The notes beneath the pieces are model-generated. The model was not told the DNA's origin, searched no databases, and saw only the letters and a program-made list of their open reading frames with translations. 64,000 bases of DNA from Eledone cirrhosa (Eukaryota), in assembly GCA_964016885.1 (NCBI GenBank), contig OZ024745.1, positions 73,346,001 through 73,410,000 on the forward strand. The letters are read 5' to 3'. Position 1 is the first letter of the stretch. Every line of letters starts with the position of its first letter. Made by a program: the position numbers and the translations under genes. Positions 29,696-63,362 of this stretch are shown here, piece by piece.

Positions 29696-30107
29696 TTAAA
29701 AAAAAGAGAGGTGTGACACACGAGTTGTGATATATTACTAAAAAGGAAAAGAAAATGCTGACAAATTTTTCCCAGTGAAAAATAGTTTAATTAGGAATAA
29801 GTATAAATTAGTACTAAGTATTGGTTAGTATTCAGTTTTAGTTTTAAGTTTTTACCGGTTGCGCATTTCTTATGCTTTTCAAAAAATAATTTTGAGATAG
29901 AGTGCTCGTGATGTTTGAGCAAAAATCACGAGCACTCTATCTCAAAATTATTTTTGAAAAGCATTAGAAATGCGCAACCGGTAAAAACTTTAAACCAAAA
30001 CTGAATACTAACCAATACTTATTACTAATTTATACTTATTCCTAATTAAACTATTTTTCACTGGGAAAAATTTGTCTGCATTTTGTTTTCCTTTTTAGTA
30101 ATATATA
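29696..30107. mobile_element. Asymmetric fold-back element between (TA)n tracts (~185-bp arms)
   Basis: ~29730-29912 is the reverse complement of ~29925-30107 with several mismatches. The left arm extends ~35 bp further to its own (TA)n. Confidence 0.88.
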
Positions 30108-30302
30108 TATATATATATATATATATATATATATATATATATATATATATATATATATATATAATATCAGGAAAGAAGAGTGACACGGTTTGCTATACAA
30201 AAAAGGCTTTTAATCTCATTGCTGACAATTGTTTCTCTGAACTGTTTCTCTAATTTCTAATTTCATATATATATATATATATATATATATATATATATAT
30301 AT

Positions 30303-30596
30303 GAAATTAGAAATTAGAAAATATAAGCTTTCACCGTATTTTAGACTAAAGAAATTTCTAGCTTGATAGTGGGGTTTATAACCCTCGGAGAAATGGAAAA
30401 AGATGAGTGTTGCCGTACATGTACAGCAACACTCATCTTTTTCCATTTCTCCGAGGGTTATAAACCCCACTATCAAGCTAGAAATTTCTTTAATCTAAAG
30501 TACGGTGAAAGCTTATATTTTCTAATTTCTAATTTCAAACTAGCACACCGTTTCAAAAACATACTTACATGTTTACGTTTATAATTTGCTTGTTTA
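30303..30596. mobile_element. Asymmetric fold-back element between (TA)n tracts (117-bp arms, no spacer)
   Basis: 30303-30536 is palindromic about gtaca|tgtac (30419/30420). The right arm extends ~60 bp to (TA)n. Confidence 0.9.
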
Positions 30597-30618
30597 TATA
30601 AATATATATATATATATA

Positions 30619-30831
30619 GCAGTAGTTCCACAATAGTTAGTTAACCATTTCCGAGGACAATTGGACAATTGTTTCGCCTTAAAGGATCATCAATCGAGCT
30701 GATGATCCGTTAAGGTGAAACAATTGTCTTCGGAAATGACTAACTAACTGTTGTGGATCTACGTCTACCAAACTTATCCCATGGATTGAGTGCTCTATTA
30801 CTGCGGATATAACCCACCAGTGTTCTACTAC
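30619..30831 (+). mobile_element. Fold-back element with back-to-back hammerheads, between (TA)n tracts
   Basis: Plus strand tcgag-CTGATGA-tccgttaaggt-GAAA-caattg-TC-ttcgg (30694-30733), mirrored on the minus strand at ~30664-30692. The right arm has a ~70-bp extension. Confidence 0.82.
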
Positions 30832-31276
30832 TATATATATATATATATATATATATATATATATATATATATATATATGTGTGTGTGTGTGTGTGTGTGT
30901 GTGTGTGTGTGTGTGTGTGTGTGTGTGTGTGTGTGTGTGTGTGTGTGTGTGCGTGTGTGTGTGTGTGTGTTAGGTGTTTAATTACAGTTACAAGTGTGCA
31001 AATAAACTCGCATATCTGATGAAATGTCGAAAAAAGTCGGGCCCCGTCATCTTGATTTTACTCTAAGATGCTCGATAAGGAAACAATTGTAATATGCCCC
31101 AAAAAATTGTTTTGCTGCAACATTTACTTCGTTTCTTTTTAATCTCTCTCTCTCTCTCTCTCTCTCTCTCTCTCTCTCTCTCTCTCTCTCTCTCTCTCTC
31201 TCTCTCTCTCTCTCTCTATATATATATATATATATATATATATATATATATATATATATATATATATATATATATT

Positions 31277-31620
31277 ATGAAAATAAACCAAAGAAGCCTT
31301 CAATACATCAAAAGTCTTTATTAGCCAACAATGTTTCGTCCTAGTAAGGACTCATCAGGGCAAGTAAAGTTATAAGAAGCACTATCGGCCAATACAAGCC
31401 AAAAACTCAGAAGAATATGGAGTATACATACATTAAAGCATAGGAAAATTATCAAGTAAAAATTATCAAGTAAAAATTGCTAAGGAAGTGAATAACATTT
31501 TGAACCATATTACAAATATAGTACAATGCAAAAACTAAAACTAAACACAAGTGGTGATATAAAGCGAGAATAATATGAAGAGGGTGTTTAACTCCAACAC
31601 ACTCTAGTATTTTAATTCTT
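31277..31620 (-). mobile_element. Short hammerhead-bearing insertion between (TA)n tracts
   Basis: Bounded by TA repeats; contains a canonical HHR ~40 nt from its 3' end. Confidence 0.75.
31316..31369 (-). ncRNA. Type I hammerhead ribozyme, canonical core
   Basis: Minus strand ctttacttgcc-CTGATGA-gtcc ttacta ggac-GAAA-cattg-TT-ggctaataaag. Confidence 0.88.
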
Positions 31621-60013: not shown

Positions 60014-60399
60014 TTCATTTCCTTTCACCCTCATTTCCAATCTCAACTAGTTTCCATCCCCTCCAACTGCCCCTTTTTTTTTTATTCGTTACTGTATTGT
60101 GGTGATGGGGATGGAGAAGGCAGAGCAATAATGCGGTGGCGGGGACATGATGTAGGTGGCAGTACTGGTGGTGGCAGTGGTCGACTGATTACTTTAAACA
60201 TCCTAATTAATCTAAGCCATCGACGATGGAGAGATTTATAAGGGATTAAACAGCTGGGATCATTGTAAATGTGATATCAGGTCATCGGTGATAAATGTTA
60301 TTGGTGTCGCTGGAGATTGTACTGTTGTTTTTGTAACTGCTGCACCTTGCTATAGGTTGTGTTCGTATCGTTTTTGATGATGATAGGACCCGTAATTAT

Positions 60400-61290
60400 T
60401 AGTTTATTGGTTACAGGGAGAAGAAAATATACAAAATATTACATACAAAAGATTACAAACGGAGAAGGGACAAATTAGGAGATACGGTAGAATCTAAAAA
60501 ATACAAAATGCAACATAATAAATAAAACAACAAATATACATATAAAATATACATATAAAATATACATATAAAAGCAAATATAAAAATACTCTCACAAAAG
60601 TCATTAGATTTACCAGCCAGAAAGGACCAGAATATCCCAAGACCTCCAGCCATATTCTATTCCAGACGCTTACTCACACCTGACTGCAAATTCCAGATCG
60701 AAGTGGACCACTCGCTCTCCTATACATACTGATTTGTTTACTTGAATTCCAGAACAACACACCATTCTCCTTCTTCCTATCTTTCATTTCAAGTGATACT
60801 TGTAGAATCCAAATTTCTTGATCCTTCCTAGAAAGCAATGGGATTCCCTTAATCAGATCTACACAACATATGCTAGGACAGCCCATCACCTCCATCGATG
60901 AAAAATAAAAGACAGCGCAGCATGTGACTGTGGGAAACCCTACTAGACAGTGCTGCATGTTGTTCAGGATTGCCCTCTCAGACGTTTTCCCGGCGGCCTG
61001 TAGGCAATCCATAATACTACAAATGGCGCCTTGGTCTAGCTCACCAGCGTCAACTTGTCTCTCTATCCATTGTTCATATGTCGTACGACAAGAAGAATAA
61101 GAATTTTTTGATCAAAGAGGGTGTCCTATGAACAGCCCATTCACTGATGGTCAGCATATAGCCCCTTTTGCTACAGCTATCAGACAGAAAAATTGCAGAT
61201 CTCCTAGAAGGAGGAACATTATCATTTCGTCTAAAATCACATAATAATATTTTCCTTATCTGATAAGAGCGACAAATATAGTGACCATGC
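60400..61290 (-). pseudogene. Possible degraded 3' end of an L1/Tx1-like LINE
   Basis: Higher-complexity block with weak Cys-motif remnants, a T-rich 3' UTR and aataaa at ~60403-60408 (minus strand). Confidence 0.35.
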
Positions 61291-61830
61291 AGGGCTCGAT
61301 TAAATATGAAGCAAACCAAGTAAAGTGGAGCATCAAAGAAAGTGGGGCACCATATAATTCAAATTAAATGCATTTGTCATTTAAAGTTATTTGAAGACTT
61401 TATATATGGGAGTGAGCACTTTAATCTATGAAATGCTCATGGATTCAAAAAGGATTAATCTGATCTTGTAACCATATCAACACAGACACTCACATCTACT
61501 CATCAATAGCTCACTAGATTAATGTCATCGCTTACTCTAACCAGTATTATACGACGAAAGCCAAACAATGTTCAACAAGTTCGGTGTTTCAAGTTCAAGA
61601 ATTCCATAATCAATTTCTTTTTCTATTTTCGTCGCCTAAAGGATTACAATAACGAGAAAGAATGAGCAGCAACGGGTGCAAATCAGATTCAAACAAATAA
61701 ACTCTACAAAATGCATTAAATACTATTCCTTCTATCTGTACCTTCAAACGTATATATATATATATATATATATATATATATATATATATATATATATATA
61801 TATATATATATATATATATATATATATATA

Positions 61831-62641
61831 CAATATTAATAAATGGAAACTATATTTATAAAACCATATTTATTTCATTATATATATTTCAAGGATACCA
61901 AGTTAAATCATGGTATGCCTTCATCAGACAAAATACAATATATAACAGTTTTATAAATAGATATTGACGTACCCTTTCAAAAAGGTGACCGTTGTTTTTG
62001 GAGGCCATCCGGATAGTGGTTTGTTTACTTTAGTAAGTCATAGTGTTAAGAGTAAGTAAAAAGATGGAGAGAGAGAGAGAGAAACGTGGAGAAAAGAAAG
62101 GGAAAGATAGATAAAGAAAAAGAAGAAAGCAAAAAGAAAAGAGAACAGAGGAAAAATAACGGGGAGATATCAAAACATCAGACAGAGAAAGAACTCTGTC
62201 TGATGTTTTGATATCTCCCCGTTATTTTTCCTCTGTTCTCTTTTCTTTTTGCTTTCTTCTTTTTCTTTATCTATCTTTCCCTTTCTTTTCTCCACGTTTC
62301 TCTCTCTCTCTCCATCTTTTTACTTACTCTTAACACTATGACTTACTAAAGTAAACAAACCACTATCCGGATGGCCTCCAAAAACAACGGTCACCTTTTT
62401 GAAAGGGTACGTCAATATCTATTTATAAAACTGTTATATATTGTATTTTGTCTGATGAAGGCATACCATGATTTAACTTGGTATCCTTGAAATATATATA
62501 ATGAAATAAATATGGTTTTATAAATATAGTTTCCATTTATTAATATTGTATATCTACTCCAAATATTTGTCGAGTGCTTTAAATCAGTTATAATAATATT
62601 TGCTTGTTATATCCCAACAATTTAAATAGAACTTTTGCATA
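61831..62641 (+). mobile_element. Family X fold-back, copy 3: ~357-bp near-perfect arms, 6-nt loop, hammerhead in both arms, (TA)n on both sides
   Basis: 61831-62187 vs 62194-62548; the only difference I saw is a 2-bp (GA)n indel. 93-bp extension to 62641. HHR tattttgt-CTGATGA-agg.atacca...tggtat.cctt-GAAA-tatata-TA-atgaaata at 62444-62508. Confidence 0.92.
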
Positions 62642-62677
62642 TATATATATATATATATATATATATATATATATATA

Positions 62678-63362
62678 TATAAAGTACAAAGCAATCAAAT
62701 CTATGTTTAATACATTTTATTGCTGACAATCGTTTCTTCCAAACAGTTATTTGGAATCATCGGAGCATTGGCAAAGTTTAAACACATAGATAACTCTCAA
62801 CACATGCAACAACAAAACTTTGTTTATGTATATTACACAATTTGCTTCATAATTTTCACCTTGTATCTTCCCCATGCATTACTGACTGCTTAATATGTTC
62901 ATCCTATTACACCTATATTTTGTGATATCTTTGCCATATTATGATATATATGCTTAATACCTCTGCACTCTTACTACCTATATGCTTATGTACCAATAAT
63001 GCCCTCCTTTGCGAGTAACCCTCTTTTATACTCTTTATTATACCCTTTGTTGCAGACCATAACATCTTTACTCATTTTGAATATGACACTACTGATAGCA
63101 ACAATAGTATCAACATATCTTTATGAATGTTCTGTTAAATAGGAATTTATTTATGTGTTTAAACTTTGCCAATGTTCCGATGATTCCAAACAACTCTTTG
63201 GAAGAAACGATTGTCAGCAATAAAATGTATTAAACATAGATTTGATTGTTCTGTACTTTATATTCCTGCTCTGTAATACACCTGATGTATTCACATTGAG
63301 CTATTTTTCATACTGGTAATAAGGTGGTAAAAAATCAAAAATACTGACCTTTCCTGCTTATA
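62678..63362 (+). mobile_element. Fold-back element (~115-bp diverged arms, ~350-bp spacer) with a variant hammerhead in each arm
   Basis: 62678-62792 vs ~63147-63261. HHR tgtt/tgct-CCGATGA-ttccaaa caactc tttggaa-GAAA-cgattg-TC-agca at 63173-63219, mirrored at ~62721-62767. ~100-bp extension to a TA-rich end. Confidence 0.85.

What the first reader, a model, noticed from the sequence alone, without database searches (positions are those of the whole stretch)
29696..63362. Recurrent asymmetric fold-back architecture in (TA)n: a possible two-ended priming mechanism
At least seven insertions from about five unrelated families (29696, 30303, 30619, 50536, 51576, 61831, 62678) share one plan: (TA)n - short inverted arm - long arm - 35-100 nt extension - (TA)n, mostly with an HHR in the arms. 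The short arm usually stops at an internal TA-like motif of the long arm (taatatat, ttgtatat, tcgtatat, ctttatat). The three family X copies use essentially the same site ~90 nt from the terminus. Inference: because (TA)n is self-complementary, both target strands can prime cDNA, one at the element end and one at an internal UA motif, and the products join head-to-head. A retroelement would thus produce MITE-like hairpins able to make dsRNA with a ribozyme on each strand.
Basis: partly seen in the sequence, partly recalled or inferred. Interest (0 to 1): 0.9.

Follow-up and report, generated by a model that had tools for sequence, protein, structure and literature searches.

The report
Two-ended Penelope retroelement insertion footprints
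These DNA hairpins in TA repeats are real, cut-down insertions of Penelope-type jumping genes in a layout already described, and their ends follow a strict rule suggesting that both cut DNA strands likely start copying one RNA at two fixed signals, which makes a little-understood insertion mechanism testable.

Summary
The seven fold-backs are real, and hundreds to thousands of relatives exist genome-wide. They are 5'-truncated insertions of Penelope-like elements (PLEs): four Hydra-type families, one Neptune-type, and one ORF-less 290-nt unit with a tRNA-like head. The 'inverted truncated copy plus one-sided tail' layout, (TA)n targeting and pLTR hammerheads are published (Craig 2021; Arkhipova 2013). 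Cutting and extension of both strands, with two internal RT starts, was shown in vitro (Frangieh 2024). This scan has found the layout repeatedly on other DNA. What the copies add: almost every insertion pairs one inner-site end with one outer-site end (22 of 23), and a prediction for full-length copies held in 9 of 9. The arms are not nested, which excludes simple snap-back. They share a haplotype, and the inner-primed arm usually runs further, which suggests twin priming on one RNA. TA homology is only 2-6 nt and does not set the site; an RCTY motif, often in a hairpin, follows all 10 sites. Hammerheads lie on both arms in only 3 of 7 elements and are predicted to be sequestered in the hairpin.

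The parts
1..1651 (-). Inverted 5'-truncated arm of the family Y PLE; continues about 360 nt upstream of the window and ends at the inner site against (TA)n
1652..2991 (+). Upstream partial copy (pLTR) of family Y, with type I hammerhead (core 2805, predicted cut after 2857), inner start site after 2903 and outer start site after 2991
2908..3018 (+). Two RCTC..GAGYRCT hairpin motifs (2908-2935, 2998-3018), each a few nt 3' of a start site; a third copy at 6568-6595
3007..5472 (+). Intact 821-codon PLE ORF: RT plus C-terminal GIY-YIG, with the Hydra-clade motifs RW(T), DKT, CxCX5C, CxxC/CxH and no CCHH; dozens of identical or near-identical intact copies in the genome
5473..6651 (+). 3' UTR, distal pLTR and 88-nt tail of family Y, ending at the outer site against (TA)n
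29697..30100 (-). Family A fold-back (Neptune-type PLE end): tail-bearing arm 29697-29917 (-), inner-ended arm 29917-30100 (+), tail 33 nt, no complete hammerhead
30165..30264 (-). 80-nt 3' stub of a further family (E) carrying a hammerhead 3' half, joined to about 20 nt that mirror the end of the neighbouring family B copy across the TA tract
30303..30597 (+). Family B fold-back: inner-ended arm 30303-30421 (-), outer-ended arm 30418-30597 (+); derived from an ORF-less 290-nt tandem unit with a tRNA-like head and no hammerhead
30619..30831 (+). Family C fold-back (Hydra-type): inner-ended arm to 30692 (-), outer-ended arm 30692-30831 (+) with hammerhead core 30699-30705, tail 65 nt
50535..50743 (-). 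Family X copy 1: tail-bearing arm 50535-50679 (-), about 63-nt inner-ended arm (+); truncated before the hammerhead core
51576..52042 (+). Family X copy 2: inner-ended arm (-) and outer-ended arm (+), hammerhead cores at 51679 (-) and 51852 (+)
61831..62640 (+). Family X copy 3: inner-ended arm 61831-62196 (-), outer-ended arm 62194-62640 (+), hammerhead cores at 61927 (-) and 62452 (+), tail about 87 nt
62682..63406 (+). Family D fold-back (Hydra-type): inner-ended arm 62682-62788 (-), outer-ended arm 62793-63406 (+), CCGAUGA-core hammerheads at 62763 (-) and 63177 (+), tail about 144 nt

Best explanation
The fold-backs are 5'-truncated insertions of Penelope-like retroelements whose two ends stop at two fixed, family-specific sites, one per end, and they likely arise because the element's enzyme cuts both strands of a (TA)n target and each cut end primes reverse transcription at one of those two internal RNA sites. 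Shown: PLE origin of X, Y, C, D (Hydra type) and A (Neptune type); fixed inner and outer sites; the one-inner-plus-one-outer rule; independent 5' ends of the two arms; 2-6 nt TA microhomology; an RCTY motif 2-5 nt downstream of all ten sites mapped. Inferred: a protein dimer binds the RCUC..GAGY hairpins and sets the two starts, and TA pairing only fixes the register. Both reactions probably use one RNA, with the inner-site RT ahead and the outer-site RT behind, either stalling soon after the inner site or displacing the first cDNA. The two cDNA 3' ends are joined by microhomology or end joining, often at short palindromes near a preferred stop. The hairpin is a by-product and the hammerhead is not needed for it. 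Family B is probably a non-autonomous passenger of the same machinery.
For: L031 shows (TA)n - inverted pLTR - pLTR+tail - ORF - pLTR+tail - (TA)n for family X, protein 43-54% identical to the window ORF. ORF links: D L151, C L110/L115/L117, A L351. With tail-free queries, 22 of 23 distinct insertions with both ends resolved were inner+outer (Y 15 of 16, X 7 of 7; P=2.9e-6); the other anchors of the 60 loci had no partner arm, ran off the locus or had other ends, and three X partners were tail-bearing but interrupted by a later insertion. Prediction test: 9 of 9 full-length Y copies whose inverted arm ends at the outer site have their distal end at the inner site; 5 of 5 long X insertions are inner+outer. 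Of 49 mixed two-arm junctions, the inner-ended arm reaches >20 nt further 5' in 23, the outer-ended arm in 5, and 21 are level; 13 outer arms stop within 40 nt past the inner site. Arms of one insertion differ by 1.4 (X) and 1.1 (Y) sites per about 105 nt against 5.7 and 3.7 between insertions, and rarely at common variant sites (3 of 32, 3 of 29 pairs). 27 of 49 centres overlap by 1-33 nt. In vitro, a PLE protein cuts and extends both strands from two internal starts that delimit the tail, is predicted to be a dimer, and does not need hammerhead cleavage (PMC11167929).
Against: No biochemistry here. One head-to-head pair of full-length Y copies ends inner/inner (L345/346), and one composite short Y locus scored inner/inner (L300). 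Some X copies carry only a 30-40 nt inverted piece at the palindromic hot spot that does not reach the inner site (L012, L024, L226, L227), which fits cDNA snap-back, so two routes probably coexist. Many copies have no inverted arm (10-17 of 30 per family). Shared arm haplotype could also come from two RNAs of one source locus or from later conversion between arms. Frangieh et al. report that start sites are not homologous to the cut DNA and saw no strand difference in start site, which does not by itself predict the inner+outer rule. Samples are top-scoring (young) copies, 30 per search. One search includes a few composite loci (L285, L289, L300). The hairpin is weak or absent by MFE at the A, B and Y-outer sites. 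The outer sites of A and C were not mapped in a precursor.
Confidence: 0.78

Rival explanations
1. Self-priming (snap-back): a single cDNA or antisense template folds back at a palindrome and is copied, giving the inverted arm (proposed by Arkhipova et al. 2013).
For: Centre hot spots sit at short palindromes (X -276 ATCCGGAT, Y -256 CATATG, B -179); 21 of 49 junctions are level; short inverted stubs that do not reach the inner site exist; PMC3846280 discussion.
Against: In 23 of 49 junctions the inner-ended arm extends beyond the 5' end of the tail-bearing arm, so neither arm can be the template of the other. L313 has an outer arm that is tail only. Y arms stop at -255 even in asymmetric joints.
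Confidence: 0.1
2. Two separate RNAs, one per subunit of a dimer, are primed independently by the two target strands, with TA/UA pairing choosing the sites (closest to the first reader's model).
For: The arms overlap in sequence by up to 2 kb, which is simplest with two templates; TA microhomology is above chance.
Against: Arms almost never differ at family-polymorphic sites; the inner arm leads 23 to 5 and outer arms pile up just past the inner site; longer TA runs are ignored. A two-RNA version with both RNAs from one locus remains open and counts partly under the best explanation.
Confidence: 0.08
3. True MITEs or DNA fold-back transposons that move as palindromic units.
For: Terminal inverted repeats, TA flanks, high copy number; some copies share a centre.
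Against: Centres vary from about -80 to beyond -3000; arms are pieces of RT/GIY-YIG elements; ends are asymmetric; junction sequences at shared hot spots differ.
Confidence: 0.02
4. Long-read fold-back or assembly artefacts.
For: X3 arms and the Y arms are about 99-100% complementary.
Against: Diverged arms in old copies, family-fixed ends at many loci, a contig bridging C's centre, and junction reads in two other samples.
Confidence: 0.02

Closest known systems
EN+ PLE insertions with inverted 5'-truncated copy and one-sided tail (Craig et al. 2021 PMC8557442 Fig. 2; Arkhipova et al. 2013 PMC3846280)
   Same: Head-to-head inverted truncated copy, tail at only one end, partial tandems, palindromes at the inverted junction, hammerhead in the pLTR.
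   Different: Tails here are 33-149 nt against the 30-40 nt described. The inner+outer rule, the lead of the inner arm and the start-site motif were not seen in the parts read.
Hydra clade PLEs, including Hydra-1_Obim (PMC8557442 section 11, Files S1/S2)
   Same: RW-type, DKT, CxCX5C, CxxC/CxH motifs, no CCHH, C-terminal GIY-YIG, (TA)n targets, type I hammerhead.
   Different: Separate families, longer (3.7-4.1 kb against <3 kb), with one very young intact family; compared by motif and by eye, not by tree.
Poseidon PAc of Anolis in vitro (Frangieh et al. 2024 PMC11167929)
   Same: Both strands cut and extended, two internal RT starts delimit the tail, stem-loop at the start, predicted dimer, hammerhead cleavage dispensable.
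   Different: PAc starts were reported as not homologous to the target and the same for both strands; here junctions show 2-6 nt TA homology and each insertion uses each site once.
L1 twin priming (Ostertag and Kazazian 2001; seen only through the review PMC10760644)
   Same: Second priming by the other target strand, two cDNAs joined by microhomology, giving an inversion.
   Different: Here the second start is fixed and the two cDNAs copy overlapping RNA, giving a palindrome; that L1 pieces are largely non-overlapping with a variable internal start is recalled, not from a call.
Animal non-LTR retrozymes (bioRxiv 10.64898/2026.07.22.740005), for family B
   Same: ORF-less tandem monomer of about 300 nt, one large array plus dispersed copies, PLE-linked.
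   Different: B has no hammerhead and has a tRNA-like head instead, so it fails the defining retrozyme feature.

Membership tests
EN+ Penelope-like elements (X, Y, C, D, A) | Single ORF with PLE RT and GIY-YIG endonuclease linked to the repeated end | tested here: met
   Y intact ORF, GIY-YIG E=0.002, below the curated cut-off; X, C, D; A thumb+linker+GIY-YIG read by eye, no Pfam support
EN+ Penelope-like elements (X, Y, C, D, A) | pLTR partial tandems, inverted 5'-truncated copy, tail at one end | tested here: met
   partial tandem seen for X, Y, D, not for A or C
EN+ Penelope-like elements (X, Y, C, D, A) | Type I hammerhead in the pLTR | tested here: inconclusive
   Met for X, Y, C; non-canonical core in D; only a 3' half in A; Rfam found none at gathering score; cleavage untested
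Hydra clade (Y, X; C, D by similarity) | RWK-type motif, DKT, CxCX5C linker, CxxC and CxH, CCHH absent | tested here: met
   RWT/RWR, SDKT, CNCRIKNKC/CNCRNKSNC, CNLC/CDLC, CLH/CRH against the definition
Hydra clade (Y, X; C, D by similarity) | Insertion into (TA)n | tested here: met
Hydra clade (Y, X; C, D by similarity) | Phylogenetic placement of the RT | not tested
   Only by-eye comparison with Hydra-1_Obim text; homologue search returned 7 unnamed proteins at 33-40%
Neptune clade (A) | C-terminal GIY-YIG with CX2-5CxxC linker and CCHH | tested here: inconclusive
   One 292-aa fragment has CX4CxxC, GIY-YIG, two His, and G in place of the first Cys; no RT core seen, no tree
Non-LTR retrozymes (B) | Type I hammerhead in each tandem unit | tested here: not met
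   No core in the reference unit on either strand; a CTGANGA heptamer in only 3 of 43 units
Non-LTR retrozymes (B) | ORF-less tandem monomer with dispersed copies | tested here: met
   290-nt period, array on C28 about 19.44-19.62 Mb, 1367 first-look candidates
tRNA-derived SINEs (B) | tRNA-derived head with A and B boxes | tested here: met
   Rfam tRNA 35.8-39.1 bits against gathering 29 in 3 of 4 hits; ARAGORN; the head is less conserved than the rest, 0.934 against 0.972
tRNA-derived SINEs (B) | Pol III transcript of the whole unit retroposed by a LINE partner | not testable with these tools
   A T5 run follows the head directly; the footprint is PLE-type; no RNA run of this organism was offered
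MITEs | Fixed length and centre, symmetric TIRs | tested here: not met

The most novel reading that the evidence does not exclude
PLE integration is an obligatory asymmetric twin-priming reaction: one RNA carries two repeated RCUC..GAGY start signals, a dimer loads one RT on each, and each target strand is assigned one signal. Every insertion therefore carries exactly one tail, and full-length copies are made from the leader's outer site plus the distal inner site. The same machinery also spreads a hammerhead-free, tRNA-headed 290-nt unit, which would be a PLE-dependent SINE-like class.
Probability: 0.4. Interest if true: 0.65.

Novelty: new member of a known kind. Interest (0 to 1): 0.42.

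Why it matters
How PLEs make inverted pLTRs and a one-sided tail is named as an open question in Craig 2021, and the steps after priming are called unvalidated in Frangieh 2024. This genome holds a young, intact family with many near-identical copies. Their junctions give quantitative rules (one inner plus one outer end, inner arm leading, a short motif after each start) that can be tested directly in the existing in vitro system. The hairpins may also be a large source of dsRNA, but no RNA evidence was available, and a two-strand ribozyme function is unlikely.

Tried and rejected
Rfam at gathering score found nothing in the window. Pfam did not recognise the full Y ORF and gave only a sub-threshold GIY-YIG hit on its C-terminus. 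My hammerhead descriptor missed C's motif and the distal Y copy, so it undercounts; 0 hits at score 12 or more in 20 shuffles. Hammerhead cleavage as the source of arm 5' ends: only 2-3 of 30 X copies end near the predicted cut and most run through it. RNase Z-type cutting of B's tRNA-like head as the source of its 5' hot spot: rejected because the ends include bases upstream of the predicted cut. B as a functional tRNA array: unlikely given the short acceptor stem and lower conservation. No ORF was found for B in L352/L353, and tblastn with the Y protein found none in A's long loci; A's ORF was found by ORF listing. Centre clustering in the first searches was biased by query length, so tail-only and tail-free queries were run, and only these were used for the rule and nesting counts. 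One search counts are not deduplicated and are not used as statistics. No listed contig bridged X3's centre or, by the 31-letter rule, B's. No RNA run of this organism was offered, so dsRNA, small RNA and editing are untested. The original twin-priming paper was not held.

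
Full report
Setting. The window is G000:C5:73346001-73410000 in a 3.0-Gb, AT- and microsatellite-rich animal genome. Earlier scan notes call it octopus-like; I did not test that.

Observation. The seven fold-backs are at the stated places, with arms 89-99% complementary. Each has one arm that stops earlier (the inner site) and one that carries an extra tail to an outer site, and both abut (TA)n. 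The autonomous element at 1-6651 has the same plan on a larger scale. Tails are 33 (A), 60-65 (B, C), 87-88 (X, Y) and 144-149 nt (D). Hammerheads of the minimal type I form with a palindromic loop III (compare PMC4209133) lie on both arms of X2, X3 and D, on one arm of C, and are absent from A, B and X1. Genome searches gave 672-3211 first-look candidates per family. In the 30 loci fetched per family, an inverted arm was found in X 17, A 14, B 20, C 13, D 15 and Y 18 (loci within a family not deduplicated). Artefact is rejected.

Identity. L031 is a full family X element: (TA)n, inverted short pLTR, direct pLTR and tail running into a frameshifted RT/GIY-YIG ORF, 3' UTR, pLTR, tail, (TA)n. 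Its protein is 43-54% identical to the window ORF. Both carry the Hydra-clade motifs defined in PMC8557442 section 11, a clade that targets (TA)n, has hammerheads, and includes Hydra-1_Obim. D (L151) and C (L110, L115, L117) are linked to ORFs of the same type. A is linked to a thumb-linker-GIY-YIG fragment with a CX4CxxC linker, which is Neptune-like. Family Y is young: all 137 scored hits were 97-100% identical over 284 aa, many in 821-codon open frames. B is different. It derives from a 290-nt ORF-less tandem unit with a large array on C28, a tRNA-like head above the Rfam gathering score, and no hammerhead, yet its dispersed copies show the same two-ended footprint.

Mechanism, shown. (1) Both sites are internal: the precursor continues past the outer site into the ORF in X, Y and D, or into the next unit in B. 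(2) One inner plus one outer end per insertion. With queries lacking the tail, 22 of 23 distinct insertions with both ends resolved were mixed (P=2.9e-6); the rest of the 60 loci lacked a partner, ran off the locus or had other ends. Noting that many full-length Y copies have the inverted arm at the outer site, I predicted an inner distal end and found it in 9 of 9; L342 and the window element show the reverse pairing, 5 of 5 long X insertions are mixed, and one head-to-head pair (L345/346) breaks the rule. (3) The arms are independent syntheses: of 49 mixed junctions the inner arm runs further 5' in 23, the outer in 5, and 21 are level; 13 outer arms stop within 40 nt past the inner site (which includes a few composite loci). 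(4) The two arms share a haplotype far more than arms of different insertions in X, Y, A, C and D; B is too uniform to tell. (5) TA microhomology at ten sites is 5, 5, 3, 2, 6, 2, 3, 2, 5, 3 nt (sum 36 against 19.8, P=0.002, best-phase null), but longer TA runs within about 120 nt go unused at 9 of 10 sites. RCTY follows at +2 to +5 at 10 of 10 sites (background 0.08-0.37 each; the motif was defined after seeing the sites, and four of the families are related). The fuller RCTC..GAGYRCT motif occurs in the X and Y elements only beside start sites. (6) 5' ends have hot spots at Y -256, X about -277 and B -179, near short palindromes, and 27 of 49 centres overlap by microhomology.

Mechanism, inferred. 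A dimer cuts both strands of (TA)n. Each 3' end primes RT at one signal, with a few bases of TA/UA pairing setting the register. One RNA probably serves both, the inner RT leading and the outer RT stalling or displacing. The two cDNAs are then joined. Priming both sites of a leader RNA gives mini-hairpins; priming the leader's outer site and the distal inner site gives the commonest full-length form. Snap-back explains some short stubs but not the non-nested arms. A read-through transcript is predicted to bury the hammerhead core in the long duplex in X2, X3 and D, so a two-strand ribozyme function is unlikely.

Comparison with print. Craig 2021 (PMC8557442; passages, section 11, and rows of Files S1/S2 read) draws the inverted truncated copy and a tail often at only one end, and names their formation as an open question. 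Arkhipova 2013 (PMC3846280; parts 2-3 of 5 and passages) describes the same layout and proposes self-priming. Frangieh 2024 (PMC11167929; parts 1-2 of 4, supplements not read) shows both-strand cutting and extension with two internal starts delimiting the tail. Twin priming for L1 was seen in a review passage (PMC10760644); PMC3649969 gave reference-list lines only. Cervera 2014 was read as passages. The retrozyme preprint was read as parts 1-2 of 5; its supplements were not seen and might bear on B. Paper searches showed no paper stating the inner+outer rule, the start-site motif, or a tRNA-headed hammerhead-free PLE passenger; these were listings of a partial library, so absence is weak. Earlier scan notes reached the PLE reading on this and other genomes, and one noted the hairpin; a sequence look-up for B found nothing.

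Verdict. A real feature of a known kind. The added value is a set of testable junction rules and the odd family B. Interest 0.42.

Noticed in passing
G000:C28 about 19.44-19.62 Mb (L364-L376, L387, L388); window 30303-30597: Family B's source: a 290-nt satellite array whose unit has a tRNA-like head (GGA anticodon, short acceptor stem, T5 just downstream) and no hammerhead, dispersed with PLE-type ends.
   Followed up: partly
window 30165-30317: A family E stub is joined to about 20 nt that mirror the neighbouring B end across the TA tract; none of the other 39 top hits had this piece. It may be fold-back copying of flank DNA through the self-complementary TA tract.
   Followed up: partly
window 52070-52833: A 760-nt fold-back centred on a TA run, directly after family X copy 2, made of non-PLE sequence; its right arm runs into a LINE-type RT region (52991-54982, RVT_1 E=4e-31). 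Possibly an inverted duplication of flank.
   Followed up: no
window 45744-46017, 57770-57896, 21401-21442: Further TA-flanked fold-backs not assigned to the PLE families; 57770 has short perfect terminal repeats like a true MITE (likeness recalled), and 21401 is a perfect 42-nt palindrome.
   Followed up: no
window 17930 (+), 58181 (-), 31358 (-): Solo minimal hammerhead motifs of other families, outside fold-backs.
   Followed up: no
window 6395 (Y -256) and 62364 (X -276): Preferred 5' stops of either arm, also in asymmetric and non-inverted copies; candidates for the pLTR transcription start.
   Followed up: partly
window 2799-2805 against 6459-6465: The distal Y hammerhead has a substitution in stem I relative to the upstream copy; the inverted arm shares variants with the upstream partial copy rather than the distal copy.
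   Followed up: no
L345/L346 (G000:C1 362.77 Mb): Two intact full-length Y elements head to head, both ending at the inner site: the one clear exception to the rule.
   Followed up: partly
window 34337-41787 and 7950-15360, 43790-47560, 56950, 63400-63780: Decayed non-LTR elements with AP endonuclease and zf-RVT domains, and an abundant roughly 150-200 nt repeat that also interrupts family X tails at a fixed position (L314, L317).
   Followed up: no
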